64,000 nucleotides of DNA. It comes from Bacillota bacterium (GTDB lineage: Bacteria > Bacillota > Sulfobacillia > Sulfobacillales > JAIMBI01). Position numbers and translations under genes: made by a program. The stretch spans positions 2,183 through 66,182 of the forward strand of contig JAKADP010000003.1 of the NCBI GenBank assembly GCA_021820465.1, given 5' to 3'. The notes beneath the pieces were generated by a model. That model ran no database searches, had not been told where the DNA came from, and worked only from the letters and a program-made list of their open reading frames with translations. Each line of letters starts with the position of its first letter. Within the stretch, counting starts at the first letter, position 1. Shown piece after piece: positions 7,425 to 56,186 of the stretch.

Positions 7425-8267
7425 ATGAGCACAGGCCATGACATGATAGGAGGCGCAGCCATCACGTCAGTGTACGCGGACGAGCCTGGATCCAGACGAG
7501 CGCAGCCCCCAGTGGCCTACAGCGGACACCCGGGCGCCTACGGCCAGCAGGCGGCCGCCTGCTTCTTGCCCCACCAGCCCACCACAGCGGTGGCCGGGTT
7601 TTCGGCGGTCGTGGCCGCCGTCCGAGACGGCGCGGCCGCCTGGGGGGTCCTGCCCTGCGAAAACCGGTATGCCGGTGCCGTCGCCGACGCCATTCGGGCC
7701 GTGCAGGCGGGCGGCTTGACGATTCTGGCCGACTTGTGGCTGCCCGTGCCCCACGCCCTGCTGGCCCAGCCGGGCGTGGCGCTGGCCTCGGTGACCGAGG
7801 TGGCGTCGCATCCGCAGGCGCTCGCGCAGTGCGACGCATTTCTGGCGCGGCACCGGCTGACCGCCGTCCCGGCCCTCACCACGGCCACCGCCGCGCGGGC
7901 TGTGGCCTCCGGTCCGCCCCATCGGGCCGCCATTGCCCCGCCCGCCGCCGCCGCCCGCTATGGCCTTGCCATCATAGCCGACCACATCGCCACAGACCCC
8001 GACAACGCCACCCGATTTTGGCTGGTTGGCCCGGCGGGCAGCGCACCCTGCGCCGGCACGCCGTACACCCTCACGGCCGCGGTCCCGGCCGACTGGTTCG
8101 AGCCCGGGAGCAGGCCGCCCGGCCATGTGCTGCTCGAGGGCGGCCCAGAGGGCCCATGGGTTCTGGACCTCCCCCCGGACGCGGGCCCTACCCTGGCAGC
8201 TCTGGCTCCATCGGGCCGAGGCCCCGCACAGCCCATGGGCTGCTATCCGCGCTTGGCGCCCCCCTGA
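7425..8267 (+). CDS. pheA: prephenate dehydratase
   Basis: PDT domain: AYSGHPGAYGQQAA, GVLPCENRYAGAV, VASHPQALAQC and TRFWLVGP. The C-terminal ACT-like part is poorly recognisable. Confidence 0.75.
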   Translation: MSTGHDMIGGAAITSVYADEPGSRRAQPPVAYSGHPGAYGQQAAACFLPHQPTTAVAGFSAVVAAVRDGAAAWGVLPCENRYAGAVADAIRAVQAGGLTILADLWLPVPHALLAQPGVALASVTEVASHPQALAQCDAFLARHRLTAVPALTTATAARAVASGPPHRAAIAPPAAAARYGLAIIADHIATDPDNATRFWLVGPAGSAPCAGTPYTLTAAVPADWFEPGSRPPGHVLLEGGPEGPWVLDLPPDAGPTLAALAPSGRGPAQPMGCYPRLAPP

Positions 8268-15614: not shown

Positions 15615-16382
15615 TCATATCGCCTCGGCCCCGCCGCACACCGGGCACGTGGCGCGGACGGGCACCGGAACGACCCGCGCCGCCCCGGTAAACAGGTCCA
15701 CCAGCCACAGGCGGCCCGTGAGCGCCTGACCCACTCCCAGAATCCACTTCAGGGCCTCCCCCGCTTGTAGGGATCCTACCACCCCGACCAGCGGGCCCAG
15801 CACGCCGGCCACGCTGCACTCGGCGGGGGCGTCCGCCACCGAGCCAAACAGGCACGCCAGACAGGGCCGCCCGCCCGGAGGCACGACGGTCACCTGGCCC
15901 TCATATCCGAGCGCGCCGCCAAACACGACCGGTGCGCCCCCCCGGACGGCCCAGGCATTCAGCACATCGCGCATCCGCCCGTCGTCCAGCCCGTCCACCA
16001 CCACGGTCGCGCCGCCCAGCAGCGTGTCCGCGCTGTCCACCCCCAGTGCCACCGCGTGCCGCACGATGGACAGCCCTGGGCTCTGCGCGCGGAGGCGGGC
16101 GGCCGCCGCGTCCACCTTGAGCGCGCCCACGTCGGCCGCCCCATAGAGGATCTGGCGTCCCAAGTCCGTCGGCGCCACGCGGCCCGGGTCAATCAGGACG
16201 AGCCGCCCCACCCCCGCCGCCGCCAGATAGGGAGCGCTGGCACAGCCAAGTCCCCCCATCCCCACCATGGCCACGGTAGCGCCGGCCAGTTTGTCCAGCA
16301 TGGCGGGCCGCACGTCGGGCAGCGCCACGAGGCGCCGGACCCGGTCCACGTCGCGCACCACCGGGAAGCCCGAGTCGCTCAC
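15615..16382 (-). CDS. thiF: ThiF/MoeB-type sulfur-carrier adenylyltransferase
   Basis: VAMVGMGGLGCASAPYLAAAGVGRLVLID (E1-like Rossmann) and C-terminal CxxC pairs. The GTG start overlaps the thiG stop (GTGA). Confidence 0.8.
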   Translation of the reverse strand: MSDSGFPVVRDVDRVRRLVALPDVRPAMLDKLAGATVAMVGMGGLGCASAPYLAAAGVGRLVLIDPGRVAPTDLGRQILYGAADVGALKVDAAAARLRAQSPGLSIVRHAVALGVDSADTLLGGATVVVDGLDDGRMRDVLNAWAVRGGAPVVFGGALGYEGQVTVVPPGGRPCLACLFGSVADAPAECSVAGVLGPLVGVVGSLQAGEALKWILGVGQALTGRLWLVDLFTGAARVVPVPVRATCPVCGGAEAI

Positions 16383-17203
16383 GGCTTTGTGGCCGCCGAC
16401 ACGATGCCCGCCTCGGGCGAGGACGCTGCGGCACGGTCCCGGCGGGGCATGCGCCCGGCGGCGCGCCCCAAAAACGCCGCCTCCACGGCCAGACGCATGG
16501 CTTGGGCCATCTGCACCGGATGCCGGGCTTGGGCAATCGCGGTGTTGATGAGCACGGCGTCGGCGCCCGCCTCAATCGCCAGCGCGGCGTCGGCTGGACT
16601 GCCGATGCCCGCGTCCACCACGACGGGCACGCCGCCGACTCGCGCCTTGATGAGCGCCACCGCCGACACGTCCAGGACACCCTGCCCCGACCCGATGGGC
16701 GATCCCAGCGGCATCACGGCCGCGGCACCCGCCTCGGCGAGCCGGCGAGCCAGCACGGGGTCCGGCGTGGTGTACACCATGACCGTGAAGCCGTCGTCCA
16801 CCAGCAGGCGCGTGGCGTCATAGGTGGCCACCGGGTCAGGCCACAAAAGGTCCGCATCGCCAATCACCTCGAGCTTGACCAGGCTGCCAAGCCCGGCGGC
16901 CCGCGCCAGCCGCGCCGTCACAACCGCCTCCTCGGCCGTATGGGCCCCCGCGGTGTTGGGCAGCAGCGTCACCCCCTTCGGCACGTATTCCAAGAGCGAC
17001 GGCTCGTCCGGCTTGTCGATGTTGACCCGCCGGACGGCCACGGTCACCAACTCCGTCCCCGAGGCGTGAATGGCCTCCCGCATCTCCTCCCACGTGGCAT
17101 ATTTCCCTGTGCCCACAATGAGGCGCGAGCGGAACTGGTACTCCCCGACGCTCCACGACCCCAACTCCTTGGGCCGCATCCCGGCCGTCTCCTGCTCCGT
17201 CAT
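16379..17203 (-). CDS. thiG: thiazole synthase
   Basis: FRSRLIVGTGKY, LLPNTAG and MPLGSPIGSGQG are ThiG motifs. ATG 17203 is preceded by AAGGAGGAGG. Confidence 0.9.
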   Translation of the reverse strand: MTEQETAGMRPKELGSWSVGEYQFRSRLIVGTGKYATWEEMREAIHASGTELVTVAVRRVNIDKPDEPSLLEYVPKGVTLLPNTAGAHTAEEAVVTARLARAAGLGSLVKLEVIGDADLLWPDPVATYDATRLLVDDGFTVMVYTTPDPVLARRLAEAGAAAVMPLGSPIGSGQGVLDVSAVALIKARVGGVPVVVDAGIGSPADAALAIEAGADAVLINTAIAQARHPVQMAQAMRLAVEAAFLGRAAGRMPRRDRAAASSPEAGIVSAATKP

Positions 17204-17228
17204 GTCGTCCTCCTCCTTTCGCGGCGCG

Positions 17229-17429
17229 CTACCCACCACCAACAAACCGGACGATTTCCAACTCGTCGCGGTCGTGCAGCGGCTCGCGGTCAAACGCCTC
17301 GCGCGCCACCACCTGCCCGTTTTGCAGCACCCCCACCGCCTGATGCGTGACCCCCAGGTGGGTCAACAGTGCGCCCACCGTGGGCAACTCTGGGGTCTCG
17401 CGCCAGCTGCCGTTTACCTTTAACTCCAC
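17229..17429 (-). CDS. thiS: sulfur carrier protein ThiS
   Basis: 66 aa ending in VGGG. GTG 17429 is preceded by GGGAGG. Lies between thiE and thiG. Confidence 0.8.
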   Translation of the reverse strand: MELKVNGSWRETPELPTVGALLTHLGVTHQAVGVLQNGQVVAREAFDREPLHDRDELEIVRFVGGG

Positions 17430-17442
17430 GGTCTCGCCTCCC

Positions 17443-18042
17443 TCATGTCGCCCCTCCATGGCGCGCCCAAGGCGCCGCCAGCTCTCGGGCCGCCCGCGCC
17501 GGGTCCGGGGCGAGCCACAGCGCGTCCACGACGGCCACCCCGGCCAGCCCCGCCTCGCACACAGCGGCCGCGCGGCGGGCATCCACTCCCCCGATCCCGA
17601 CCACCGGCACGGCCGCTTCGCGCGCCACTTGGGCCGCGAGGTTTAGGCCGCGGGGTTCGAGCCCTGGCTTCGACCGGGTGGGAAACAGGTGGCCAAACAC
17701 CAGCCAATCGGCCCCCTGGGACCGCTGCAGGTCCTCCACGCTGTGCACGGCCCGCGAAATCACAGCGGTTGGCATCAGACGGCGCACGTCTGCCGGCGAC
17801 AGTCCATCGCCGGGCAGGTGCACGCCCGCCACGCCCAGGACCATCGCCACATCGGCGCGGTCGGCCACCAGCACCGGCCGACCCCCGACGGCCGCCGCCA
17901 ACTCCACCGTCCACCGCCGCTGAGCCTCTGCCGGCAGGCTCTTGGCCCGAAGGATGAACACATCGACCCAAGGGGCGCACCGCGCCGCGCTCGTGGGCCA
18001 GTTGGCCGGCGCCCGGGGAACATCCAACACCGCCACCAGCAT
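17443..18042 (-). CDS. thiE: thiamine-phosphate synthase
   Basis: Track ORF 17443..18852 trimmed to ATG 18042, which overlaps the cytX stop (TAATG). A ThiE-like TIM barrel of 199 aa: VFILRAK, GVHLPGD, FPTRSKPG, VVGIGGV. Confidence 0.8.
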   Translation of the reverse strand: MLVAVLDVPRAPANWPTSAARCAPWVDVFILRAKSLPAEAQRRWTVELAAAVGGRPVLVADRADVAMVLGVAGVHLPGDGLSPADVRRLMPTAVISRAVHSVEDLQRSQGADWLVFGHLFPTRSKPGLEPRGLNLAAQVAREAAVPVVGIGGVDARRAAAVCEAGLAGVAVVDALWLAPDPARAARELAAPWARHGGAT

Positions 18043-19466
18043 TAGGTAGACTGCTCCGATGCCATGCTCATCTCCGGCTGCTGGCCCCGTGGCCAGCTGC
18101 TGTAAATCAGGACGCTGGCCGCGAACGCCACCAGAAAGCCAAGGTCCGATCCCTGAAACACTCCGGTGGCCAGCGGGCCCTGATACACGGTGGTGGAGCT
18201 GAAGAGCGCCGCCACAACCAAGCCCGCCCCCCAGGCCACCAGCGCGGGGATCCGATACGCGCCATAGAGAGAGTCCCGCCCGCGATAAAGTTCCGGGACA
18301 TTGACGCCGTGCTTGAGACGCGTCGCCAAGTCCACCAAAAACACACCGGCCCAAGGCGCCAGCACCCCGGCCAACAGGCTCAGGAACGCCTCGAAGGTGC
18401 CCATGAACGACTGGGAGGCCGCCAAGAGGACGTACAGGCTGCCGGCCACCGAAAGCACCGCGTCGACAAACACGGTCCGGTATCGGGGTATGCGAACCTC
18501 CGCGGCCAGCAAGCTCAATCCCGAGGAATAGATGTCCAGAATGTCTCCGGTCACCATGCTGGCGACGGCCGTCAGGAGGTAGGGCACGGCCAGCCCACTG
18601 GGCAGCATCGCCTGCAGATAGCCGATCGGATTGGCCGTGGTGGCCAGGCCCGCGTGGCCGCCGTACAGCAGCAGGCCGAGCAGCATGAGCGCCGCGGCCG
18701 GGATGACCGACCCCCAGGTGGTGGCGCCCCAAATGCGGCGGCTCGAGGTGGTGCGGGGCAGGTAGCGCGTGTAGTCGCTCGCCGTGTTGACCCACGAAAG
18801 CCCCGTTGCCGCCACCACGACGGAGAAAGCCGGCAGCACCCCTGTAAGCCACGGGCCGTTGGGAATCCGCCCCAGAGCGCTCCAGTTGACATGCGGCAGC
18901 AGCAGCGCGGCCACAACCACGGTCATGGCACCAAACACATAGCTAAAGGCCGTCTGCACGCGCACCAGCGTCGCATGGCCCAACAGCGCCACGGAAAAGG
19001 CCACACCCATCACCAGCGCCAGCGAGCCAACGGCCACCGGCCACGTCGGCGCCCACCCGAACGCCGCATGACCCGCCGCCTCCAGCGCCAGCGTGGCCAC
19101 CACCAGCACAACCGTCTCCCAGCCCACCAGGTTCACCCACGACACCAGGCTGGGAAGCACGTTGCCGCGGGTCCCGAACGACGCGCGGCTCAAGACCATG
19201 GTGGGCACTCCCGTCCGCGTCCCCGGAATGGCGAAGTATCCAATCAGCGCAAACGATCCCACGCCGGTCAGCACCAGGAGCCCCTGCGCCAGCGATAGGC
19301 CGTAGGACATGGCCACGGCCCCCAGCACCAAGCCTACAATCGCCAGATTGGCCGCAAACCACACCCAAAACAAGTTGCCGGGACGCGCGTGCCGCTCTTC
19401 GTCCGGAACGGGATTGGCCCCGTTCTGTTCGATGCGCCACGCTTGATCTCCCGATGCTGCTGCCAC
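18042..19466 (-). CDS. cytX: purine-cytosine permease family transporter, putative hydroxymethylpyrimidine transporter
   Basis: 474-aa polytopic NCS1-like protein. It is the first gene after a TPP riboswitch. The GTG start is preceded by AAGGAGG. Confidence 0.75.
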   Translation of the reverse strand: MAAASGDQAWRIEQNGANPVPDEERHARPGNLFWVWFAANLAIVGLVLGAVAMSYGLSLAQGLLVLTGVGSFALIGYFAIPGTRTGVPTMVLSRASFGTRGNVLPSLVSWVNLVGWETVVLVVATLALEAAGHAAFGWAPTWPVAVGSLALVMGVAFSVALLGHATLVRVQTAFSYVFGAMTVVVAALLLPHVNWSALGRIPNGPWLTGVLPAFSVVVAATGLSWVNTASDYTRYLPRTTSSRRIWGATTWGSVIPAAALMLLGLLLYGGHAGLATTANPIGYLQAMLPSGLAVPYLLTAVASMVTGDILDIYSSGLSLLAAEVRIPRYRTVFVDAVLSVAGSLYVLLAASQSFMGTFEAFLSLLAGVLAPWAGVFLVDLATRLKHGVNVPELYRGRDSLYGAYRIPALVAWGAGLVVAALFSSTTVYQGPLATGVFQGSDLGFLVAFAASVLIYSSWPRGQQPEMSMASEQST

Positions 19467-29803: not shown

Positions 29804-29878
29804 TGGCTGGGGAGGCAGGGTTCGAACCTGCGAATGCCGGCTTCAAAGGCCGGTGCCTTACCACTTGGCGACTCCCCA
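29804..29878 (-). tRNA. tRNA-Gln (anticodon UUG)
   Basis: The minus strand gives UGGGGAGUCGCCAAGUGGUAAGGCA...CCGGC-CUUUGAA-GCCGG...GGUUCGAACC...CCA. It has U1-A72 and an encoded CCA. Confidence 0.9.
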
Positions 29879-29886
29879 ACACAATT

Positions 29887-29962
29887 TGGTGGAGCGGAGG
29901 GGATTCGAACCCCTGACCCCCAACGTGCAAAGCTGGTGCTCTACCAACTGAGCTACCGCCCC
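29887..29962 (-). tRNA. tRNA-Ala (anticodon UGC)
   Basis: GGGGCGGUAGCUCAGUUGGUAGAGCA with anticodon loop UUUGCAC, a G3:U70 pair, a GGUUCGAAUCC T-loop and CCA. Confidence 0.9.
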
Positions 29963-29981
29963 GCTCCCTGGCTCAAGATAA

Positions 29982-30056
<75 letters not shown>

Positions 30057-30105
30057 CACAAAAACTGCCCCATCAGGACGCGGTGCCCGGGGCGCTGAAG
30101 CAAAT

Positions 30106-30181
30106 TGGCAGGCCAGGAGGGACTCGAACCCCCAACCCGCGGTTTTGGAGACCGCTGCTCTACCATTGGAGCTACTGGCCT
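30106..30181 (-). tRNA. tRNA-Trp (anticodon CCA)
   Basis: AGGCCAGUAGCUCCAAUGGUAGAGC with anticodon arm GCGGU-CUCCAAA-ACCGC, a GGUUCGAGUCC T-loop and CCA. Confidence 0.9.
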
Positions 30182-30217
30182 GCGACGCTTCTGCCTGGAT
30201 TCTACCACAAACGAGAC

Positions 30218-30294
30218 TGGTGGGCCATGAAGGATTCGAACCTTCGACACTCCGCTTAAAAGGCGGATGCTCTAACCAGCTGAGCTAATGGCCC
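30218..30294 (-). tRNA. tRNA-Lys (anticodon UUU)
   Basis: GGGCCAUUAGCUCAGCUGGUUAGAGC with anticodon arm CCGC-CUUUUAA-GCGG, a GGUUCGAAUCC T-loop and CCA. Confidence 0.9.
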
Positions 30295-30303
30295 CCCACA
30301 AAT

Positions 30304-30379
30304 TGGTGGCCCCACCGGGATTCGAACCCGGGTTACCACCTTGAAAGAGTGGTGTCCTAGGCCTCTAGACCATGGGGCC
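30304..30379 (-). tRNA. tRNA-Glu (anticodon UUC)
   Basis: GGCCCCAUGGUCUAGAGGCCUAGGAC with anticodon loop CUUUCAA, a GGUUCGAAUCC T-loop and CCA. Confidence 0.9.
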
Positions 30380-30384
30380 AAGTT

Positions 30385-30460
30385 TGGTGGAGATGAGGGG
30401 GGTCGAACCCCTGACCTCGTGAATGCCATTCACGCGCTCTACCAACTGAGCTACATCCCC
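30385..30460 (-). tRNA. tRNA-Ala (anticodon GGC)
   Basis: GGGGAUGUAGCUCAGUUGGUAGAGC with anticodon arm CGUGA-AUGGCAU-UCACG, a G3:U70 pair and CCA. Confidence 0.9.
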
Positions 30461-36399: not shown

Positions 36400-39300
36400 T
36401 TAATCTTTATAGGCGCTGTAGCTGCTGTAGGGATTGGGCGCCACGCTGCTGACCATGAGCGTCCCCCGGCGCATGCGGCCGGCCACCACCAGCACCCCCC
36501 GGCTTCGGGAAGAAAACAGATGCTGGCCATAGCGCGCATACCCCTGCTCGCTCAGTGATGCGTCCAACAGCCCGGTTTCGTCCAGGAGGGAAAAAAACAC
36601 GATCAGGCGCCCACTGCGGGTGGGGGGGCGGTGCGGGCGCACCAGCACGCCGGCCGTGCGCACCCAGCCGCCGTCCGGGGCTTCACCGGCCTCCCGCACC
36701 GTGCAAAATCCGTCCGCCGCCAGGCGATCCCGCCAGAGCGCCATCAGCTGCGTGGTCTGCCCAAACCCCAGCAGGCGGTACTCCCAGTACAGCCGCTCCG
36801 CCAGGGTCCAGGGCCGCCCGCCCGCCCGCTCGCTCACCATCCCCAGCGGGTTCACACTCCACAGCTGCTCCAGCATCCGGTCGCGGTCCGCATCCCAGGC
36901 ATCAAACGCGCCCAGCCGCACCAGTTGGGCCAGCCGTCCCGGGTCCAGCCGGCTGGCCCGCCACAGCGCCTCCACGCGGCCCTGGCCAGGCTCGAGGGAC
37001 CGGCCTGCGGCTTCCAGGGCCGCCGCCCCCTCCCCCATCCCCGCCACTGCGCGATATCCCACCCGAATCGCATTGGCTGACGGCACCCAGCTGAAGTCCT
37101 CCGTGCTGCCACCGGCTGCTAGGGGCCAGAGGTCGACGCCCCGACGCCGCGCCTCCACCACCAGCACATCACGGGGGTAGTATCCCATGGGCTGCGCATT
37201 GAGGAGTCCGGCCACATAGGGGCCAGGAAATCGGTCCAACAGGTACACGGTGCGGTACGCCGTCTCCGCAAAGGCTGCCGCATGCGCCTCGTTAAATCCG
37301 TAGCTGGCGTAGCCGACCATCTGCTGAAACACCTCCTCGGCCACCTCGCGCGCTACCCCCCGCGCCACCGCCTTGTCCAAAAACACCTGCCCCATTCGGT
37401 CCATCTCCGCCGCCGAGCGGCCATGCGTCATCACCCGGCGCAGCTGGTCCGCCTCCCCGGGGGTGAAGCCCGCCAGCGTGCTGGCAATCGCGATCACCTG
37501 CTCCTGAAACAGCACCACCCCGTAGGTCTTTTTTAAGATCGGCTCTAGGTCGGGGTGCGGGTACTGCACCGGCTCCTCGCCCCGGCGCCGCGCCACAAAG
37601 GGGTCCACCATATTGCCCTGGATCGGGCCGGGGCGAATCAGTGCCAGGCTCGCCACCACATCCTCGAAGCGGTCCGGCTGCAGGCGCCGCGCCAGCGCCC
37701 GCTGTGCGGGGCTTTCCAGCTGAAACACCCCGATGCTGTCCGCCGCCTGAAGTCGGCGGTACACGCCGGGGTCCTCTGGGGGAATGCGATCCATCTGAAA
37801 CGCCGGATCCTCCTGGCGGATGGCTTTTTCGGCAAAGTCGATGGCGGTGAAAGTGCGCAGGCTCAGCAAATCCAACTTTAAGAGGCCCAGACTCTCCACG
37901 TCCCGCTTGTCAAACTGGCACAGCGCCACACCTTTGGCCGATCGCTCCACCGGCGTGACCTGCTCCAGCGGCTCGCCGCTGACCACCAGCCCACCCAAGT
38001 GCGTGCCCAGGTGTCGCGGCAGCCCTTCCAAGTGCACCGCCCAAGTCACCAGGCGGCGGTGCAGCGGCGACAAATGCAGCGCCGCCAACTCGGGCACCTT
38101 GTCAAACGCGGCCTCGTCATCCATCAGCCGGGCCAGGGAGCGCTCAGGCAGCGACTTGGCCAGGTGGTCTAAGACCGCCGGCGGAAATCCGAGCACCCGG
38201 CCCACCTGGCGAACCGCCAGCCGGGCGCGAAAGGTTTGGTAGGTGGCCACTGCCGCCACGCGCTCGCGGCCGTACCGGTCGCGAACGTAATCCGCCACCT
38301 CATCGCGCCGCCGCGCGTCAAAATCAATGTCAATATCGGGCGCCTCCGCCCGCTCCCGGCTCAGGAACCGCTCAAACAGCAGCGCGCGGCCTGCCGCATC
38401 CACCTCCGTGATGCCCAGGCAATACGCCACCACGGAGTCGGCCGCCGACCCCCGTCCGGCAAAGCGAATGCCGCGTCGGCGGGCAAAGGCGGCCACGTCT
38501 TCCACCACCAAAAAGTAGTCCGCAAACCCCAGATCGCGAATCACCCCCAGCTCATGGGACAGGCGGCGAGACAGGCGCCGCCACCCGGGGCCATAGCGGC
38601 GGGCGGCGCCTCGCTCCGTCAACTGCACCAGCGTGGCAAACGCATCCCCCCCACCGGGCCAGGACGGCAGCCGCTTTTGGCCCAGCAGCGGCACTGGCTC
38701 CAACCGCTCGCCCAACGCCTGGGTATTGTGCACCGCGGCCGGGGCCAGGCCGCCCAGTGCGCGGGCCAGGGCGGCCGGCCCCTGCAGGAATCCACACGCA
38801 TTAAAGGGCCGGTCGGGGTGTGGGGCCTCTACCGAAAGGCCGTGGCGCACCGCCACCAGCAGGTCGTAGGGGACAAATCCCGCCGCATCGGCGTGGTGCA
38901 CTTCCACTGCGGCCACGCACTGGAGGTGCAGCGCCTCCCCGAGGTCGCCGAGCGCCTGATGAATCATGCGGTCGCCGGGGAGCCATCCAACCGCCAACTC
39001 CAGATGCAAGTCGCGGCCAAAGATGGCCTTCAGGCGTTCAGCGGTGCTCCGAGCCCGCTCCCGCTGGCCACGCTGCAGTTTGGCGTCCAGGACGCCGCGC
39101 CGCCCCCCTGAGAGCGCCACCAGCCCCGGGCCATGCTGGGCCAGTGAGGCCCACTCCACGCGCGGCGCCTTGCGCGGATGCTGCCAGGCTGCCTCCGTCA
39201 GAAGCCGCGTGAGCTGCACGTAGCGGTCCGGAGTGGGCACCAGCAGCACCAGCCGCCCCTCGTCTTCGCCACTGGGCGTTCCGTCCTGACGCGCCAACTG

Positions 39301-39501
39301 CACCGTGGCGCCGGCAATGGGCCGAATACCCGCCTGCTGGGCGGCGGCGGTCAGCCGCACCAGCCCCGACACCCGGTGCCAGTCGGTCAGCGCCACGGTG
39401 TCCACCCCCGTGGCCACGGCCGCCGCGACCAGATCTTCCGGGGTGCTGGAGCCATCCAAAAAGGAAAAGGCCGAGTGGTTGTGCAGCGCCGCCCACCCCA
39501 T
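36400..39501 (-). CDS. dnaE2: error-prone DNA polymerase (DnaE2-type Pol III alpha homologue)
   Basis: 1033 aa. PHP N-terminus LHNHSAFSFLDGSSTPEDLV and a Pol III alpha core. A LexA box lies 21-32 nt upstream of ATG 39501. Confidence 0.9.
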   Translation of the reverse strand: MGWAALHNHSAFSFLDGSSTPEDLVAAAVATGVDTVALTDWHRVSGLVRLTAAAQQAGIRPIAGATVQLARQDGTPSGEDEGRLVLLVPTPDRYVQLTRLLTEAAWQHPRKAPRVEWASLAQHGPGLVALSGGRRGVLDAKLQRGQRERARSTAERLKAIFGRDLHLELAVGWLPGDRMIHQALGDLGEALHLQCVAAVEVHHADAAGFVPYDLLVAVRHGLSVEAPHPDRPFNACGFLQGPAALARALGGLAPAAVHNTQALGERLEPVPLLGQKRLPSWPGGGDAFATLVQLTERGAARRYGPGWRRLSRRLSHELGVIRDLGFADYFLVVEDVAAFARRRGIRFAGRGSAADSVVAYCLGITEVDAAGRALLFERFLSRERAEAPDIDIDFDARRRDEVADYVRDRYGRERVAAVATYQTFRARLAVRQVGRVLGFPPAVLDHLAKSLPERSLARLMDDEAAFDKVPELAALHLSPLHRRLVTWAVHLEGLPRHLGTHLGGLVVSGEPLEQVTPVERSAKGVALCQFDKRDVESLGLLKLDLLSLRTFTAIDFAEKAIRQEDPAFQMDRIPPEDPGVYRRLQAADSIGVFQLESPAQRALARRLQPDRFEDVVASLALIRPGPIQGNMVDPFVARRRGEEPVQYPHPDLEPILKKTYGVVLFQEQVIAIASTLAGFTPGEADQLRRVMTHGRSAAEMDRMGQVFLDKAVARGVAREVAEEVFQQMVGYASYGFNEAHAAAFAETAYRTVYLLDRFPGPYVAGLLNAQPMGYYPRDVLVVEARRRGVDLWPLAAGGSTEDFSWVPSANAIRVGYRAVAGMGEGAAALEAAGRSLEPGQGRVEALWRASRLDPGRLAQLVRLGAFDAWDADRDRMLEQLWSVNPLGMVSERAGGRPWTLAERLYWEYRLLGFGQTTQLMALWRDRLAADGFCTVREAGEAPDGGWVRTAGVLVRPHRPPTRSGRLIVFFSLLDETGLLDASLSEQGYARYGQHLFSSRSRGVLVVAGRMRRGTLMVSSVAPNPYSSYSAYKD

Positions 39502-39517
39502 GCGATCGCCTCCGATT

Positions 39518-39537
39518 AATAGAACGTGTGTTCTATT
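39518..39537. promoter_or_regulatory. LexA (Cheo-type SOS) box upstream of dnaE2
   Basis: aatAGAACgtgtGTTCTatt. GAAC-N4-GTTC at 39522-39533. Confidence 0.75.
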
Positions 39538-39706
39538 ATACGTCGGCTGAGGATTCCCCGCCGCATCCCTCCCCATGATGCCGCGGGCCCGCCTTTGAAG
39601 GGCCCCACGGCCGGCCTAGCCCCTGTGGGCGGTTGCCGAGATGCTGCCCCGCCGCTATCATCGCGTATCATGCCGATGCTCGCGCGGCCGGGAGGAACGA
39701 CGCACT

Positions 39707-40240
39707 ATGCCACGTTTAGAGGTGCTGCAGGAGGGCAACGTGCGGCTGCGCCCGGTGTCGCTGCCGGACGACATCGACGTGGCCTGGGCCTGGTATCAGG
39801 ACGTGGAGACGCTTGCGCTGTCCCAGCGCCCAGGCACCGAGCCCCTGTCCCGCGACCGTGTGGCGCGCATGTATCAGTATCAGGCGGCGCACGGGGAATT
39901 TTACATGATTGAGATCCAGGGGGCGATCGGAGTCCAGGACGCCGCAGACAGCCCATCCTGGCACCCCATTGGCGACGTGATGCTGGCCCCAGACACACTC
40001 CCCATCGTGATTGGGGTCCCTGCCGCCCGGCGGCGGGGCATCGGCCGGCGCGTGCTGGCGCTGCTGATTGCCCGCGCCCGCCAGCTGGGCTGGCCCACAC
40101 TGCAAGCCAAGGAAATCTGGTCCTACAACGAAGGCAGTCGCCGGCTGTTTCAATCGGCAGGCTTTGTTCTGGCCGCCACCGGGGTCGACCCCGGTGGCCA
40201 GCCATACGAGCGCTACCGGCTGGACCTCCGGGGCCCGTGA
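39707..40240 (+). CDS. GNAT family N-acetyltransferase
   Basis: Track ORF trimmed to ATG 39707. RRRGIGRRVLALLIARARQLG is an acetyl-CoA-binding motif. Confidence 0.7.
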   Translation: MPRLEVLQEGNVRLRPVSLPDDIDVAWAWYQDVETLALSQRPGTEPLSRDRVARMYQYQAAHGEFYMIEIQGAIGVQDAADSPSWHPIGDVMLAPDTLPIVIGVPAARRRGIGRRVLALLIARARQLGWPTLQAKEIWSYNEGSRRLFQSAGFVLAATGVDPGGQPYERYRLDLRGP

Positions 40241-40244
40241 GCCC

Positions 40245-41090
40245 TTAAAACGCTTGCAGCGTCAGATCCTCGCCGCTGGCGGGAAAGGCCCGGTCCAACC
40301 GGTCCAACTCCGCGGCCGACAGGGTCAGGCCCAGCGCGGCCGCATTATCGGCCAGGTGGGCGCGGCGGGCGGCCTTGACGACCACCACCCACCGGGCGGC
40401 GGCGGGCCGCAGGATCCACGCCAAGGCTACTGCCGCCGGAGACACGTCATGTGCGCGTGCCACGTCGGCCAGCACGCCGTTCACGGGAATGTCGGGTCCC
40501 AGCACATGGCGAATGGGGCTGTAGGCCATGAGGCTGGTGTCCAGGCGGGCGGCCACATCTGCCAGTGTGGCTTCCGGCTCCCGCGTGGCCAGCCCATACC
40601 GCACCTGATTGGCAAAGATTCGGCCGTCCGTGAGCCGATGCGCCTCTTCCAGCAGAGCCGCTGGAAAATTGCTCACCCCGATGTGGCGCGCCAATCCCCG
40701 CTCCAACACGTCCACGAGCCCCGCCATCGTCTCAGCCAGGGGCGTCTTCGCCGAAGGCCAATGCAGCAGATATAGGTCGACCCAGTCGGTGCCCAGCCGC
40801 TTCAGCGACTGGCTGAGGCTCCGCAAAACGTCCTCCCGCCCCGCATGGGACGGCCACACTTTGGTGGTGAGAAACACCTGATCCCGCAAGTCCCCCACCG
40901 CATCCCGCACAATCTCCTCCGAGCGGCCCTCCGCATACGCCTCAGCGGTATCGATCAGGGTAAGGCCCGCTTCGATGCCGGCGCGGAGCACATCCACTTC
41001 CTCGGTGCGATGAGCCGCGTCCTCGCCAAACCGCCACGTGCCCTGTCCCAGCGGCGGCACCTCGGTGCCGCGGGTCGTTGTCCATGCCAT
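40245..41090 (-). CDS. aldo/keto reductase
   Basis: Track ORF 40245..41321 trimmed to ATG 41090 (GAGGGGG upstream). LGQGTWRFG, IDTAEAYAEGRSEE and HWP are AKR motifs. Confidence 0.85.
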   Translation of the reverse strand: MAWTTTRGTEVPPLGQGTWRFGEDAAHRTEEVDVLRAGIEAGLTLIDTAEAYAEGRSEEIVRDAVGDLRDQVFLTTKVWPSHAGREDVLRSLSQSLKRLGTDWVDLYLLHWPSAKTPLAETMAGLVDVLERGLARHIGVSNFPAALLEEAHRLTDGRIFANQVRYGLATREPEATLADVAARLDTSLMAYSPIRHVLGPDIPVNGVLADVARAHDVSPAAVALAWILRPAAARWVVVVKAARRAHLADNAAALGLTLSAAELDRLDRAFPASGEDLTLQAF

Positions 41091-41160
41091 GCGATGTTCC
41101 CCCTCACTGCTGGGGGGCAATCCCCCGCGCTCGCCCCCGAGCTTAGCACGAGCGGGCTTG

Positions 41161-41400
41161 TCAGTCGTACACCCGGTACAGCCACCACTGGTGCTGATCC
41201 AGATCCGACGCCACCTCAAACACTCCGCCGCCATCGACGCCCACACGAAAAAACCAGCAGGGCATCTCGTTGGCCCACCAGGCCCCCTGGTCCTGCCACT
41301 GGTCCAAAATGTGCTCCACACGGTACCAGTGGCGCCGCCACCGGAACCGACGAGGCTCCCCAGCCGCCACCCTCACCTCAATCGCCTGCCAGCGACTCAC
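41161..41400 (-). CDS. small Trp-rich protein translationally coupled to the imuB-like gene (DUF6504-like by recollection)
   Basis: GTG 41400 overlaps the imuB-like stop (GTGA). The 79-aa product is VSRWQAIEVRVAAGEPRRFRWRRHWYRVEHILDQWQDQGAWW...HQWWLYRVYD. Confidence 0.55.
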   Translation of the reverse strand: MSRWQAIEVRVAAGEPRRFRWRRHWYRVEHILDQWQDQGAWWANEMPCWFFRVGVDGGGVFEVASDLDQHQWWLYRVYD

Positions 41401-42476
41401 CGTGCCGCACTCCGCCAGGGATCCCACAGGGCTAATCGCCGCTCCCGCGCCGACTCCCACCGCGCCATGGACAGCATCAGGGCCTGCGGCCCCGCTGCCG
41501 CCGCGCGAGGTGCCGCGCTCCCCCACCATGTTAGTTGGGAATCGGGAGCGGCCGACAGCTGGTCCGCTTCAATGGCCACCCGAATCGGCGGATCCACGCC
41601 CTGGGGCGCCACGAGGGCAAGGACGCGCAACAGCAGCCGGGTGGCGTCCTGCACCCCCGCGGGCCACTGCCGACGCCATTCGACCGGGGAGCTTGCCTCC
41701 CCTTCCCAAGTAACGCGGAGGCCCGACGCCACCCATCGCCCGGCCTTGAGCCTCCCTGCCAGCTCCTGCACCATCTCGATCCACACCGACCGCAGGCCCA
41801 CCTCCAGCGGATCGGGCCAGCGGCGCTCCACTACCAGGAGCGGCGGCGCCGCGGCCGCCAGATATGGCGACCGCGCCAATCGCCGAGCCAGCCCTGGCAC
41901 ATCGCCCACCCGCTCCCAGTGGAGCTGCCGCCAGCGCGTTCTGTCCGCCAGCGCCACTGGCACGGCCTTCAGCGGAAAGCTGGCCCAGGCCGCCGCGGTC
42001 TCTGCCGGCCCCGCCACCCAACAGCGCCCCGGCACCCCGGCTTCCCACATCGGCAGCCCCAGCGCCTCGCCGGCCCGCGCCACCCATCCGGCCAGCAGAG
42101 GATGCTCAGCCACCCCCCCACGAATCCACCCCGCCTCGGCCGGCACCAGCATGCCTGCCAGCGCACTCCAATCTCGAGGGGTGGGGACGCTCACCGCCAC
42201 CCACCCGCGGCGCACATCTGGCAGCGCCCATGGCCCTCCCCACTGGGATAGCTGATGGCCCATGTTCCGCTGAGGATCGCGGTAGAGTGATGCCTGCCAG
42301 TCGCAGCGCACCGCGGTGGGGGCATGCCAGCGCAGCTCTGACTCCGCCATGGCCCAGCGGATCCCCTGATCCCACAGGGGCAGCGAGGCATCAAAAACTT
42401 TGCCGTCGTGCAGGACCACATATTCTGCGGCCGCAGGCAGCCCCGGAGACGCCACCTGACGCAGTTCGAATGCCAT
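41397..42476 (-). CDS. imuB: ImuB-like Y-family polymerase homologue (probably non-catalytic)
   Basis: About 359 aa. The N-terminal VVLHDGKVFDASLPLWDQGIRWAMAESE resembles ImuB/DinB palm-finger but lacks the DMDxFF-type motif. A LexA box lies 26 nt upstream and dnaE2 lies 2 kb away. Confidence 0.6.
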   Translation of the reverse strand: MAFELRQVASPGLPAAAEYVVLHDGKVFDASLPLWDQGIRWAMAESELRWHAPTAVRCDWQASLYRDPQRNMGHQLSQWGGPWALPDVRRGWVAVSVPTPRDWSALAGMLVPAEAGWIRGGVAEHPLLAGWVARAGEALGLPMWEAGVPGRCWVAGPAETAAAWASFPLKAVPVALADRTRWRQLHWERVGDVPGLARRLARSPYLAAAAPPLLVVERRWPDPLEVGLRSVWIEMVQELAGRLKAGRWVASGLRVTWEGEASSPVEWRRQWPAGVQDATRLLLRVLALVAPQGVDPPIRVAIEADQLSAAPDSQLTWWGSAAPRAAAAGPQALMLSMARWESARERRLALWDPWRSAAR

Positions 42477-42497
42477 GAACACGTGTCCTCACCCTTG

Positions 42498-42517
42498 ATT
42501 AGAACTTATGTTCCAAT
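42498..42517. promoter_or_regulatory. LexA (Cheo-type SOS) box upstream of the imuB-like gene
   Basis: attAGAACttatGTTCCaat. GAAC-N4-GTTC at 42502-42513. Confidence 0.7.
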
Positions 42518-42673
42518 CATAAGGCCTCGCCCTGTCCACCACAAGGCCAGCGGCCAGGCGAATCAGCAGGTCTCGCGTGACCGGGCGGCGACGTGCATGG
42601 TGATAAGGCCCCAAGCCCTCTCTTGGCCTTTTTCGCTCCCGTGCTCCAGAAAACCCCGAGCCCGGCTCGATGC

Positions 42674-49250: not shown

Positions 49251-49358
49251 ATGAACGACTCTGGGGAGATGATGTCCGTGGCGATTCGAACGCAAGAGCC
49301 CGAGATTGAAGTGCACACCTACCGGCGGCGGTTTTCGACGGCCTACAAACTCCGCATG
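49251..49358 (+). mobile_element. IS3-family OrfA N-terminal fragment (remnant)
   Basis: The frame gives ...YRRRFSTAYKLRM, resembling the RRxFSAEYKLRI start of IS3-family OrfA HTH proteins. Homology stops abruptly where the helicase fragment begins. Confidence 0.4.
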
Positions 49359-50238
49359 CCGACGCCTGTCAGGATGCGAAGATTCCCGCCGCCTTCAGGC
49401 GCTCCGCACCGGCGAGGTGCAGGTGCCGGCCAACGCCATGCTCCTCACCGAAGGCTGGGACGAGCCCACGATCTCGGCCGTGCTGTTGGCCCGGCCCACC
49501 CAGAGCCGCCCCTTGTGGATTCAGATGGTCGGCCGAGGGCTTCGCATCGCCCCCGACAAGACCGACTGCTTGGTGCTGGATGTGGCCGACAGTCGGCACG
49601 ACTTGGCCACGCTGTCGGCCCTGCAAGACCTCGGAGTCACGGTGGCGCCCGCCGCGCCTCGGGGTCCCCACGTGCCGGGCCTCAGCGCACCCGCCGCCGA
49701 GGAGCCGGACGGTCTGCCCACGACTGCGACCTTGGTGGCCACGCCGTGCGACTTGCTCACGCGCTCCGCGTTTGCGTGGCAGCGCCAGAGCGGGCGGCTG
49801 ACGCTCCAGGCCGGGCCGGGGCGCCGGGTCCAACTCATCCCCGACGGGCACGGCTACCGCGTGCAGGCTTGGGCCGGTGCGCCCGTCACGCTCCATCCCG
49901 ACCCCCTGCCGCTGGAGTATGCGCAGGGTGTGGCGGAGGACTGGGTGCGCGGCCAGGACGGGGGCGGCTTTGCCCGCAAGGACGCCAAGCGGCGCCAACT
50001 GCCCCCGTCCGCCAAGAGGGTGGCGCTGGCTCGCGAGTTGGGTCTGCACTTCCCGGACGGAACCACGCGGGAAGGCGCGCATGATGCCCTGGAAGCCGCC
50101 ATGGCGCAGGCCGGCTGGAAGGATCCCGACGCCTCCTGGCGGCAGGATCCCGCGATGCCTAAGCAGACCCGTGGCTTACGGCGCACCGCATCCGCGTGCG
50201 GGACGGGCTCACCAAGGGCGAAGCGGCCGATCAGATGA
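49306..50238 (+). pseudogene. 5'-truncated SF2 (DEAD/DEAH-like) helicase, C-terminal fragment only
   Basis: LRTGEVQVPANAMLLTEGWDEPTISAVLLARPTQSRPLWIQMVGRGLR corresponds to helicase motifs V-VI. No motif I-III region lies upstream. A probable further frame change lies near 50160. Confidence 0.7.
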
Positions 50239-56092: not shown

Positions 56093-56186
56093 TGGCGGGA
56101 GTATGTGGGAATCGAACCCACCGCCGACCGCCGGCCGGCCATCGGATTTGAAGTCCGTGGAAGGCACCAGTCCTCCATCTACCCCC
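56093..56186 (-). tRNA. selC: tRNA-Sec (anticodon UCA)
   Basis: 94 nt on the minus strand: GGGGGUAG-AU-GGAGGACUGGUGCCUUCC-A-CGGA-CUUCAAA-UCCG-...long variable arm (GGCCGGC/GCGGUCGGC)...-GUGGG-UUCGAUU-CCCAC-AUACUCCC-G-CCA. The acceptor strand is 8 nt and the T stem is 5 bp. The anticodon stem is only 4 clean bp. Confidence 0.75.

What the first reader, a model, noticed from the sequence alone, without database searches (positions are those of the whole stretch)
36400..42517. SOS mutagenesis genes split into two LexA-boxed units, with no imuA
Seen: Cheo-type boxes AGAACgtgtGTTCT (39521-39534) and AGAACttatGTTCC (42501-42514). Each lies 20-30 nt upstream of a minus-strand start: dnaE2 at 39501 and the imuB-like gene at 42476. 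Between the two units sit an unrelated GNAT gene and an aldo/keto reductase. No RecA-fold ImuA or ImuA' gene precedes the imuB-like gene; the upstream neighbour is an enoyl-CoA hydratase. From established knowledge, imuA-imuB-dnaE2 cassettes normally include an ImuA-type component.
Basis: partly seen in the sequence, partly recalled or inferred. Interest (0 to 1): 0.6.

Follow-up and report, generated by a model that had tools for sequence, protein, structure and literature searches.

The report
Split SOS mutagenesis polymerase cassette
This is a DNA-damage-inducible error-prone polymerase system of an already described ImuA-less type (dead Y-family polymerase, small ImuB-C protein and DnaE2). 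Here two inserted genes cut it in two and each half has its own LexA operator, which is an interesting detail but not a new kind of system.

Summary
The only two exact GAAC-N4-GTTC sites in the 64 kb lie 19 and 24 nt upstream of dnaE2 (36400-39501, minus) and of a 359-aa gene (41397-42476, minus). Each abuts a -10 hexamer.

The 359-aa protein matches no Pfam, NCBIfam or PDB sequence. Profile-profile comparison (99.95%) and a predicted fold identify it as a Y-family polymerase without the catalytic carboxylates. It keeps a beta-clamp motif, QLTWWG.

It is Pfam DUF6504, and I show this model is the ImuB C-terminal domain (ImuB-C).

The locus is therefore the published ImuA-less module iPolY + standalone ImuB-C + DnaE2 (Timinskas & Venclovas 2019, 2026). 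Lack of imuA is its hallmark, not an anomaly.

Relatives such as Sulfobacillus and Alicyclobacillus carry the three genes contiguously behind one box. In this clade an aldo/keto reductase and a GNAT gene were inserted, and dnaE2 has its own conserved operator.

Two modest new points emerge:
- This iPolY family is annotated 'hypothetical' wherever a source names it.
- It lacks the RecA-NT-like motif found in published members.

LexA binding and damage induction remain untested.

The parts
42539..42544 (-). -35-like hexamer TTGTGG of the promoter of the iPolY unit, 17 nt upstream of the -10
   Evidence: Read directly. This is a consensus resemblance only, with 3 of 6 matches.
42516..42521 (-). 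-10 hexamer TATGAT of the iPolY unit, one base upstream of the LexA box
   Evidence: Orthologous loci carry TATGAT, TATCAT, GATAAT or TATAAT at the same place.
42501..42514 (-). LexA (Cheo-type) box 2, GGAACataaGTTCT on the coding strand. It is the operator of the iPolY/ImuB-C unit.
   Evidence: Exact core match. It is conserved upstream of every orthologue of the gene.
42656..42670 (-). Terminator-like hairpin with a T-run just after the enoyl-CoA hydratase stop. It separates that gene from the SOS unit.
   Evidence: a consensus scan only.
41397..42476 (-). iPolY: a 359-aa catalytically dead Y-family polymerase homologue (361 aa if it starts at GTG 42482). It has a beta-clamp motif QLTWWG (aa 314-319), a disordered linker (aa 317-340) and a conserved tail S342-R355 (RERRLxLWDPWR).
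   Evidence: - No Pfam, NCBIfam or PDB sequence hit.
- The family profile reaches IMS+IMS_C proteins.
- hhalign gives 99.95% probability, E 1.4e-37, over 348 columns against a set that includes E. coli DinB.
- AlphaFold model with pLDDT 84.6.
- Foldseek top hits are all Y-family polymerases, E down to 6e-14.
41161..41400 (-). Standalone ImuB-C: a 79-aa all-beta protein (Pfam DUF6504). Its GTG start overlaps the iPolY stop (GTGA), which suggests translational coupling.
   Evidence: - Pfam DUF6504, 35.5 bits.
- The same model hits residues 430-505 of a canonical 507-aa Rhizobium ImuB.
- Alignment A4.
- The model has six strands, pLDDT 67.5.
- The gene sits directly downstream of the iPolY gene wherever the held DNA extends past it.
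40245..41090 (-). Aldo/keto reductase (281 aa), a passenger gene inserted downstream of ImuB-C. It may be co-transcribed, since the gap is 70 nt with a GC hairpin but no T-run.
   Evidence: Pfam Aldo_ket_red and public gene calls. It is frameshifted in L001-L003 and L013, and absent in L008 and in all contiguous cassettes.
39707..40240 (+). GNAT acetyltransferase (177 aa) on the opposite strand, tail-to-tail with the reductase. It is part of the insertion that splits the cassette.
   Evidence: Pfam Acetyltransf_3 and gene call. It is present after ImuB-C in all members of the split clade.
39535..39540 (-). -10 hexamer TATAAT of the dnaE2 promoter, directly abutting the LexA box
   Evidence: The same TATAAT-plus-box arrangement occurs in L019 and L020, and TATCAT in L021.
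39521..39534 (-). LexA (Cheo-type) box 1, AGAACacacGTTCT. It is the operator of dnaE2 and lies inside an 18-nt-arm imperfect palindrome (39508-39547).
   Evidence: Exact match. It is conserved directly upstream of dnaE2 in L019, L020 and L021, and absent upstream of dnaE2 in all contiguous cassettes. Palindrome.
36400..39501 (-). dnaE2: a 1033-aa error-prone C-family polymerase. The polymerase aspartates are present (PDIDIDF 388-394, LKLDLL D543) and no QxxLF-type clamp motif was found.
   Evidence: Pfam PHP, DNA_pol3_alpha and finger domains. The best NCBIfam match is 'error-prone DNA polymerase', 756 bits, below its 939 cut-off. Motifs. RBS GGAGG at 39509-39513.

Best explanation
The region encodes an SOS-regulated, ImuA-less 'split-ImuB' mutasome.

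**Upstream unit (operator at 42501-42514).** It makes two accessory proteins:
- A catalytically dead Y-family polymerase (iPolY, 359 aa) that keeps a beta-clamp-binding motif.
- A translationally coupled 79-aa beta-barrel protein equal to the C-terminal domain of canonical ImuB (ImuB-C).

**Downstream unit (operator at 39521-39534).** It makes the catalytic subunit DnaE2.

**Regulation.** In undamaged cells LexA would sit on both boxes. Each box directly follows a -10 hexamer, so bound LexA would block RNA polymerase. After DNA damage, RecA-stimulated LexA cleavage would release both promoters.

**Assembly and function.** iPolY would dock on the sliding clamp. [quoted passage not shown]

**Origin of the split.** The ancestral form is a contiguous iPolY-ImuB-C-dnaE2 operon behind one box. 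In this clade a GNAT gene and an aldo/keto reductase were inserted after ImuB-C, and dnaE2 carries its own promoter and operator.

**Shown here:** gene identities, loss of the catalytic residues, DUF6504 = ImuB-C, conservation of the boxes, and the rearrangement.

**Inferred:** LexA binding, damage induction, all protein contacts (taken from published AlphaFold models of related systems), and docking of ImuB-C on the conserved RRExxLxxWDPWR tail of iPolY.
For: **Operators**
- There are two exact boxes in 64 kb, both at promoters.
- Every related locus that holds an iPolY gene has one exact box, at most about 60 nt upstream of the called start and at or beside a -10-like hexamer.
- A second box sits directly upstream of dnaE2 only in the split clade: window, L019, L020, L021.

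**iPolY**
- The profile reaches IMS+IMS_C proteins.
- hhalign gives 99.95% over 348 columns.
- All top Foldseek hits are Y-family polymerases.
- E. coli DinB D103/E104 align with R89/R90, and D10 with R6. D8 aligns with E4, which is Arg in the family consensus. HMMER places the pair on R90/G91.
- The DinB clamp motif QLVLGL aligns with QLTWWG. M. smegmatis ImuB has QLPLW (PMC11791113).

**ImuB-C**
- DUF6504 hit. The same model hits the C-terminus of a canonical fused ImuB above its gathering score.
- All-beta model.

**DnaE2**
- Polymerase aspartates are intact and no clamp motif was found.

**Gene order**
- iPolY-ImuB-C-dnaE2 is contiguous in L004, L007, L014, L015, L022 (Sulfobacillus thermosulfidooxidans) and L023 (Alicyclobacillus vulcanalis).
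- L022 shares both flanks with the window: enoyl-CoA hydratase upstream and GAF-GGDEF downstream.

**Literature**
- The iPolY + ImuB-C + DnaE2 class without imuA is published.
Against: - No experiment shows LexA binding or induction. lexA and recA are not in the window.
- The iPolY family shows no RecA-NT-like motif, which published members use to justify RecA as the ImuA substitute. The role of RecA here is therefore open.
- Protein-protein contacts could not be modelled with the tools available.
- In one close lineage (L001-L003, L013) dnaE2 is not next to the GNAT gene and the reductase is frameshifted. The association may therefore be loosening in some genomes.
- DnaE2 scores below the NCBIfam 'error-prone' cut-off.
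Confidence: 0.8

Rival explanations
1. The 359-aa protein is a working DinB/Pol IV-type translesion polymerase. The locus is then simply dinB plus an unrelated dnaE2, both SOS genes.
For: It has a Y-family fold. A glutamate (E4) aligns with the first catalytic aspartate of DinB.
Against: - The D103/E104 equivalents are R89/R90 (hhalign), or R90/G91 by HMMER.
- D10 aligns with R6. E4 is Arg in more distant family members.
- There is no IMS or IMS_C hit at any threshold.
- The gene is always coupled to ImuB-C, and usually to dnaE2.
Confidence: 0.02
2. The two GAAC-N4-GTTC sites are chance palindromes or bind a regulator other than LexA, and the genes are not damage-induced.
For: Two or more exact matches arose in 6 of 100 shuffles. 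No lexA is in the window and there is no binding data.
Against: - Both sites abut -10 hexamers upstream of the two functionally linked units.
- The site is kept at the same position in orthologous promoters whose flanks have diverged. This holds from iPolY identity of 86% down to 39%, and also in the Sulfobacillus and Alicyclobacillus cassettes.
- A canonical recA-like/imuB/dnaE2 cassette of Thermomicrobium roseum carries the same motif.
- From established knowledge, CGAAC-N4-GTTCG is the LexA/DinR box of Gram-positive bacteria.
Confidence: 0.06
3. The split reflects functional uncoupling or decay. DnaE2 acts on its own or with other partners, and iPolY/ImuB-C are relics or serve another role.
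For: - dnaE2 is not adjacent in L001-L003 and L013, where the reductase is a pseudogene.
- In L020 and L021, dnaE2 follows unrelated 667-691-aa proteins.
- The literature notes DnaE2 groups linked only to ImuB-C or to no partner.
Against: - iPolY and ImuB-C are intact, with many invariant residues across 24-86% identity.
- Both units keep the same operator type.
- DnaE2 lacks a clamp motif while iPolY keeps one.
Confidence: 0.08
4. A canonical ImuA or ImuA' exists elsewhere in the genome and completes a standard ImuA-ImuB-DnaE2 mutasome.
For: Only 64 kb of the genome can be inspected. Several window ORFs have no family assignment.
Against: - No RecA-fold or ImuA hit was found among 48 window ORFs scanned with Pfam. 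The 10 of these without a Pfam hit that were rescanned with NCBIfam also gave none. tblastn with RecA and a RecA-like ImuA found nothing either.
- Published surveys found no imuA in whole genomes carrying iPolY-ImuB-C-DnaE2 (PMC6511836).
- The iPolY has no RecA-NT-like motif to bind such a protein.
Confidence: 0.05

Closest known systems
DnaE2X-iPolY-ImuB-C-RecA module (Timinskas & Venclovas, NAR 2019 and NAR 2026; examples Kyrpidia tusciae, Thermaerobacter marianensis, Sphaerobacter thermophilus, Deinococcus deserti)
   Same: - An inactive Y-family homologue with a clamp motif, a standalone ImuB-C, DnaE2, and no imuA.
- A conserved C-terminal RRExxLxxWDPWR-type tail, also listed for T. marianensis, K. 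tusciae and S. lipocalidus.
- The gene order iPolY > ImuB-C.
   Different: - The iPolY family here is about 40 aa shorter (about 360 against about 400 aa).
- It is not recognised by Pfam IMS or IMS_C.
- It lacks a detectable RecA-NT-like motif.
- dnaE2 is separated from the other two genes by two inserted genes and has its own operator.
- Membership of the DnaE2 in the authors' 'DnaE2X' clade was not tested.
Canonical ImuA-ImuB-DnaE2 (ImuABC) mutasome of Mycobacterium, Caulobacter, Pseudomonas and Myxococcus
   Same: - An SOS-box-controlled cassette.
- A dead Y-family adaptor with a QLxLW-type clamp motif.
- An ImuB-C domain.
- DnaE2 as the catalytic subunit.
   Different: - There is no RecA-fold ImuA gene.
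- ImuB is split into two polypeptides.
- There is no RecA-NT motif.
- There are two transcription units instead of one, or instead of the mycobacterial imuA'-imuB plus an unlinked dnaE2.
E. coli Pol V (UmuD'2C-RecA) and B. subtilis YqjW-YqjX
   Same: A LexA-controlled Y-family protein is paired with a small beta-rich accessory subunit that is proposed to bind its C-terminal tail. Here this is an analogy for the inferred docking of ImuB-C on the iPolY tail.
   Different: In those systems the Y-family subunit is the active polymerase. The small subunits (UmuD', YolD) have SH3-like folds reported to be unrelated to ImuB-C (PMC12926913).

Membership tests
Y-family DNA polymerase superfamily (fold level) | Palm-fingers-thumb-little-finger architecture homologous to DinB/Dpo4 | tested here: met
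   - hhalign gives 99.95%, E 1.4e-37, over 348 columns against a set with E. coli DinB.
- Foldseek top 50 hits are all Y-family polymerases, E 6e-14 to 5e-11, over about 358 columns.
- The profile hits Dbh, Dpo4, Rev1 and Pol IV in the PDB.
Catalytic DinB/Pol IV | Three catalytic carboxylates (E. coli DinB D8, D103, E104) and a match to Pfam IMS above the gathering score | tested here: not met
   D103/E104 align with R89/R90, or R90/G91 by HMMER. D8 aligns with E4, which is Arg in the family consensus. There is no IMS or IMS_C hit even at E <= 10.
Canonical ImuA-ImuB-DnaE2 cassette | A RecA-fold ImuA/ImuA' gene in the cassette | tested here: not met
   The upstream neighbour is an enoyl-CoA hydratase followed by a terminator-like site. 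No RecA-fold or ImuA hit was found anywhere in the window. The rest of the genome was not inspected.
Canonical ImuA-ImuB-DnaE2 cassette | ImuB as a single polypeptide: dead Y-family core + clamp motif + RecA-NT motif + ImuB-C | tested here: not met
   The core with the clamp motif (359 aa) and ImuB-C (79 aa) are separate ORFs overlapping by GTGA. No RecA-NT motif was detected.
iPolY-ImuB-C-DnaE2 (DnaE2X-iPolY-ImuBC-RecA) module | Inactive Y-family homologue with a beta-clamp-binding motif | tested here: met
   QLTWWG (aa 314-319) aligns with the DinB motif QLVLGL. Q314 and W317 are invariant among close relatives, and Q314 across the wider family.
iPolY-ImuB-C-DnaE2 (DnaE2X-iPolY-ImuBC-RecA) module | Standalone ImuB-C protein encoded next to the iPolY gene | tested here: met
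   The 79-aa ORF hits DUF6504. DUF6504 hits aa 430-505 of a canonical 507-aa Rhizobium ImuB at 25.7 bits, above the 24.2 cut-off. Alignment A4. The published A. acidocaldarius ImuB-C (ACV58046) closely resembles the L023 protein in A4 (by eye, not computed).
iPolY-ImuB-C-DnaE2 (DnaE2X-iPolY-ImuBC-RecA) module | DnaE2 encoded with the two accessory genes | tested here: met
   dnaE2 lies 1.66 kb downstream on the same strand, but behind two inserted genes and its own promoter. It is contiguous in L004, L007, L014, L015, L022 and L023.
iPolY-ImuB-C-DnaE2 (DnaE2X-iPolY-ImuBC-RecA) module | RecA-NT-like motif between the clamp motif and the C-terminal tail of iPolY (the basis for RecA as a subunit) | tested here: not met
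   I built an HMM from 19 motif segments. At E <= 0.01 it matched 31 of 46 independent control proteins, each with a stretch at the C-terminal position, and 0 of 21 members of this family. The linker is 18-27 aa in most members against about 40 aa in the references, and it is predicted disordered. The window protein keeps a possible remnant of the helix, PQALMLSMARW (compare T. marianensis PVLLDELARRY).
iPolY-ImuB-C-DnaE2 (DnaE2X-iPolY-ImuBC-RecA) module | The DnaE2 belongs to the DnaE2X clade | not tested
   No phylogeny with the authors' reference set was made. The protein is 48-52% identical to the DnaE2 proteins of Alicyclobacillus vulcanalis and Sulfobacillus thermosulfidooxidans, which sit in contiguous cassettes.
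LexA (Cheo-box) regulon | CGAAC-N4-GTTCG-like palindrome overlapping the promoter | tested here: met
   Both boxes have exact cores and directly follow -10 hexamers. They are conserved in orthologous promoters.
LexA (Cheo-box) regulon | LexA binding and induction by DNA damage | not testable with these tools
   This needs EMSA or footprinting, and RNA-seq or qPCR after mitomycin C or UV.

The most novel reading that the evidence does not exclude
The roughly 360-aa iPolY family may define a minimal three-protein mutasome that needs neither ImuA nor RecA as a structural subunit. The family occurs in Thermaerobacter-like and Sulfobacillus lineages and related Bacillota MAGs, and it is invisible to Pfam and NCBIfam. 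It has lost the RecA-NT motif but keeps the clamp motif and the RRExxLxxWDPWR tail, which would dock the standalone ImuB-C. In the split clade the catalytic subunit is gated by its own LexA operator. DnaE2 and its clamp adaptor could then be induced with different thresholds or timing.
Probability: 0.2. Interest if true: 0.5.

Novelty: new variant of a known kind. Interest (0 to 1): 0.3.

Why it matters
[quoted passage not shown] How they assemble, and what ImuA or RecA contributes, is still unsettled.

This locus adds nothing categorically new, because the ImuA-less split-ImuB module is published. It does offer three things:
- **Annotation fix.** A whole iPolY family is labelled 'hypothetical protein' wherever a source gives a name, and can now be named.
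- **Natural RecA-NT deletion.** These natural variants lack the RecA-NT motif and could be used to test whether RecA or ImuA contact is dispensable.
- **Operator on the separated gene.** When an SOS operon was broken by gene insertion, the separated gene carries its own operator. This argues for selection to keep all mutasome parts under LexA.

Tried and rejected
**Searches that found nothing useful**
- Direct family searches of the 359-aa protein (Pfam at E <= 10, NCBIfam, phmmer against PDB) found nothing. Identification needed a family profile, hhalign and a predicted fold.
- The word-indexed search with the 79-aa protein found only one relative. A paper search for 'DUF6504' found nothing.

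A1 then gave six Bacillota MAG loci.
The two-sequence run gave only a moderate model (pLDDT 67.5), so I used it for secondary structure alone and ran no fold search.
- The look-up of the Thermaerobacter sp. DnaE2 (P0119) found no record. I could therefore not compare the iPolY of a named Thermaerobacter directly.

**Ideas rejected**
- The C-terminal conserved segment of the iPolY is not the RecA-NT motif. Table S4 of PMC6511836 lists it as the separate tail that follows RecA-NT, and the motif HMM does not match this family.
- One-mismatch boxes do not mark further SOS genes in the window; they are at chance level.
- lexA, recA or an imuA-like gene is not present in the window.

Full report
**1. 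The observation**

On the minus strand the dnaE2 upstream region reads cgTATAATAGAACacacGTTCTattaatcGGAGGcgatcgcATG. The region upstream of the 359-aa gene reads TTGTGG-17 nt-TATGATtGGAACataaGTTCTaatcaagGGTGAGGAcacGTGttcATG.

GAAC-N4-GTTC occurs exactly twice in 64 kb, at 39522-39533 and 42502-42513. The expectation is 0.35, and 6 of 100 shuffles gave two or more. With one mismatch allowed there are 13 sites against 14 expected, so there are no further candidates. The count alone is weak evidence. Position and conservation, described below, are strong evidence.

Pfam and NCBIfam confirm the surrounding genes:
- dnaE2 (PHP, pol III alpha and finger domains; best NCBIfam model 'error-prone DNA polymerase')
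- the GNAT gene
- the aldo/keto reductase
- the upstream enoyl-CoA hydratase

Public gene calls for the same DNA give products of 359, 79, 281, 177 and 1033 aa (MAG GCA_027343685.1, contig DAHWKI010000007.1).

**2.

Immediately downstream of the 359-aa gene there is a 79-aa ORF at 41161-41400 on the minus strand. Its GTG start overlaps the TGA stop of the 359-aa gene as GTGA. It matches Pfam DUF6504 (35.5 bits).

To find out what DUF6504 is, I fetched a canonical cassette from a Rhizobium plasmid. Its 507-aa 'DNA polymerase Y family protein' sits directly upstream of, and overlaps, the error-prone polymerase gene. It hits IMS, IMS_C and, at residues 430-505, DUF6504 above the gathering score.

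DUF6504 is therefore the ImuB C-terminal domain (ImuB-C). The window ORF is a standalone ImuB-C. It aligns with the Rhizobium ImuB C-terminus through conserved P..F.W, GxWW and W.YR..D positions. Its model is all-beta with six strands, at pLDDT 67.5. This agrees with the beta-barrel described in PMC12926913.

**3. The 359-aa protein**

It has no Pfam, NCBIfam or PDB sequence match even at E <= 10. Only ten word-index homologues were found, and the two that a source names are called 'hypothetical'.

A profile of these ten proteins plus the query was searched against 1.84 billion representatives. It found about 25 family clusters, and then proteins of roughly 350-475 aa (most 380-420) at E from 7e-11 to 1e-3. 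The six of these that I scanned carry IMS, and five also IMS_C.

Further evidence for the fold:
- Profile-profile comparison with that group plus E. coli DinB gives 99.95% probability, E 1.4e-37, over 348 columns.
- An AlphaFold model from 23 sequences has pLDDT 84.6.
- Its 50 best Foldseek matches in the PDB are all Y-family polymerases (Dpo4, Dbh, DinB, MsDpo4, Rev1, eta, iota, kappa), with E down to 6e-14 over about 358 columns.

Evidence that it is catalytically dead:
- In the hhalign alignment DinB D103/E104 fall on R89/R90. HMMER puts the pair on R90/G91.
- D10 falls on R6.
- D8 falls on E4, which is Arg in the more distant members.

The protein is thus a catalytically dead Y-family homologue (iPolY).

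The DinB clamp motif QLVLGL aligns with QLTWWG (aa 314-319; Q314 invariant). M. smegmatis ImuB has QLPLW (PMC11791113). DnaE2 keeps PDIDIDF and LKLDLL, the motifs that from my own knowledge correspond to E. coli DnaE D401/D403/D555. It shows no QxxLF-type motif. This fits an adaptor role for iPolY.

**4. Context in relatives**

The ImuB-C gene follows the iPolY gene in every locus whose held DNA extends past the iPolY gene.

*Contiguous cassettes.* dnaE2 follows ImuB-C directly in L004/L016, L007, L014, L015, L022 (a read assembly carrying the DnaE2 of Sulfobacillus thermosulfidooxidans) and L023 (Alicyclobacillus vulcanalis). In L023 the iPolY is of the 397-aa, faintly IMS-positive kind. Each of these loci has a single exact box. 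It lies upstream of the iPolY gene, mostly beside a -10 hexamer, and none lies before dnaE2. L022 shares both flanks with the window: the carboxyltransferase, HMG-CoA-lyase and enoyl-CoA-hydratase genes upstream, and a GAF-GGDEF gene downstream. The window therefore shows the same chromosomal site after a rearrangement.

*Split clade.* In the window's closer relatives a GNAT gene on the opposite strand follows ImuB-C, usually with an aldo/keto reductase before it (L001-L003, L008, L010-L013, L019).
- L019 (DnaE2 85% identical) has the window's exact layout and two boxes, one before each unit.
- In L020 and L021 (DnaE2 76% and 74% identical) dnaE2 follows unrelated 667-691-aa proteins. It still has TATAAT or TATCAT plus the box 18-20 nt upstream of its start.

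The second operator is therefore a conserved feature of the clade in which dnaE2 is separated. It is not a coincidence of this one window.

The reductase is frameshifted in L001-L003 and L013 and absent in L008, so it is a passenger. Whether it is co-transcribed here is open. The gap is 70 nt and holds a GC hairpin without a T-run.

**5. Comparison with what is known**

[quoted passage not shown] They found no imuA in the operons or in the whole genomes.

Their Table S4 lists such systems in Kyrpidia tusciae, Thermaerobacter marianensis, Syntrophothermus lipocalidus, Alicyclobacillus acidocaldarius, Thermincola potens and Deinococcus deserti. The 2026 survey (PMC12926913) names the type DnaE2X-iPolY-ImuBC-RecA. 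It models ImuB-C contacting the DnaE2 PHP domain, and regards iPolY plus ImuB-C as a split ImuB.

The window is a member of this kind, and 'no imuA' is its defining trait. Within the window I found no lexA, recA or RecA-fold gene. I used tblastn, Pfam on 48 ORFs and NCBIfam on ten of the ORFs without a Pfam hit. The rest of the genome could not be checked.

**6. Where it differs**

*No RecA-NT-like motif.* Published iPolYs carry a RecA-NT-like motif between the clamp motif and a conserved tail. In T. marianensis, for example, the motif is QEDRPVLLDELARRYPGRIFWGR and the tail is ERPVSRRERQLAYWDPWR.
- The window protein keeps the tail (ESARERRLALWDPWR; W351 and D352 invariant).
- The segment between clamp motif and tail is 18-27 aa in most family members against about 40 aa in the references.
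- That segment is not conserved and is predicted disordered.
- An HMM built from 19 RecA-NT-like segments matched 31 of 46 independent control proteins at E <= 0.01, each with a stretch at the expected C-terminal position. It matched none of 21 members of this family.

The argument that RecA replaces ImuA rests on that motif, so it does not carry over here.

By analogy with the UmuC tail binding UmuD' and the proposed YqjW tail binding YolD, I infer that the conserved tail docks the standalone ImuB-C. This is inference only.

*Invisible to annotation.* The family is not detected by the IMS and IMS_C models and is annotated 'hypothetical protein' wherever a source gives a name.

*Split cassette.* The cassette is split and has two operators.

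**7. Mechanism and confidence**

*Most likely.* LexA represses both promoters by occupying boxes that abut the -10 hexamers. DNA damage releases both. iPolY binds the clamp, ImuB-C links iPolY to DnaE2, and DnaE2 performs mutagenic bypass.

| Claim | Confidence |
|---|---|
| Identity of the parts | about 0.9 |
| LexA control | about 0.8 |
| Assembly details | about 0.5 |

*Rivals, all judged unlikely:*
- an active DinB
- chance boxes, or boxes bound by another regulator
- functional uncoupling of the two units
- an imuA elsewhere in the genome

**8. Verdict**

The finding is a correct observation of a known type of system with a derived operon architecture. Interest is modest (0.3). It is useful mainly as an annotation fix, as a natural RecA-NT-less variant, and as a case where an SOS gene separated from its operon by insertion carries its own operator.

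Noticed in passing
window 39508-39547: The dnaE2 operator lies inside an 18-nt-arm palindrome that is 78% complementary here and perfect in L019 and L020 (CACCCCTATAATAGAAC-N4-GTTCTATTATAGGGGTG). It pairs the -10 region with the ribosome-binding region. In a read-through transcript from upstream it could form a hairpin that hides the RBS. I did not test this.
   Followed up: partly
window 42477-42488: A one-mismatch box (GGACacgtGTTC on the minus strand) overlaps the RBS and start of the iPolY gene, 25 nt downstream of the exact box. One-mismatch sites are at chance frequency in the window, and this one is not kept with the same spacing in L011.
   Followed up: partly
L020:172-2175 and L021:636-4879: In two relatives, large proteins of 667-691 aa with no Pfam domain lie directly upstream of the LexA-boxed dnaE2. 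Their nature is unknown.
   Followed up: no
L001:11396-12236 (also L002, L003, L013): The aldo/keto reductase downstream of ImuB-C is frameshifted in this Thermaerobacter-like MAG lineage, and dnaE2 is not found within 8 kb downstream. dnaE2 may be relocated or lost there.
   Followed up: partly
window 8188-9360 (-): An AlkZ-like DNA glycosylase gene (Pfam PF06224, E 2e-43). This is another DNA-repair gene in the window, with no LexA box nearby.
   Followed up: no
window 19534-19633 (-): A TPP riboswitch (Rfam RF00059, 68.7 bits) lies upstream of a cytosine/purine/thiamine-type permease (18042-19466, minus strand). ThiG and ThiF genes are at 15615-17293.
   Followed up: no
window 29807-30460 (-) and 56097-56186 (-): A cluster of seven tRNA genes, and a separate selenocysteine tRNA (RF01852, 67.8 bits).
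   Followed up: no
window 20047-21279 (+): An IS110-family transposase (DEDD_Tnp_IS110 + Transposase_20).
   Followed up: no
window 49306-50238 (+): The only family match of this 310-aa ORF is a 70-residue stretch of the RadD DNA-repair helicase model (E 1e-15). It may be a helicase fragment or a divergent protein.
   Followed up: no
L018:1638-1703: The canonical recA-like/imuB-like/dnaE2 cassette on the Thermomicrobium roseum megaplasmid carries CGAACaggtGTTCG about 55 nt upstream of its RecA-like gene, followed by a second near-match (CGAACgcatGTGCG). Its 416-aa ImuB-like protein hits IMS_C only, with no IMS or DUF6504 hit at E <= 0.1.
   Followed up: partly
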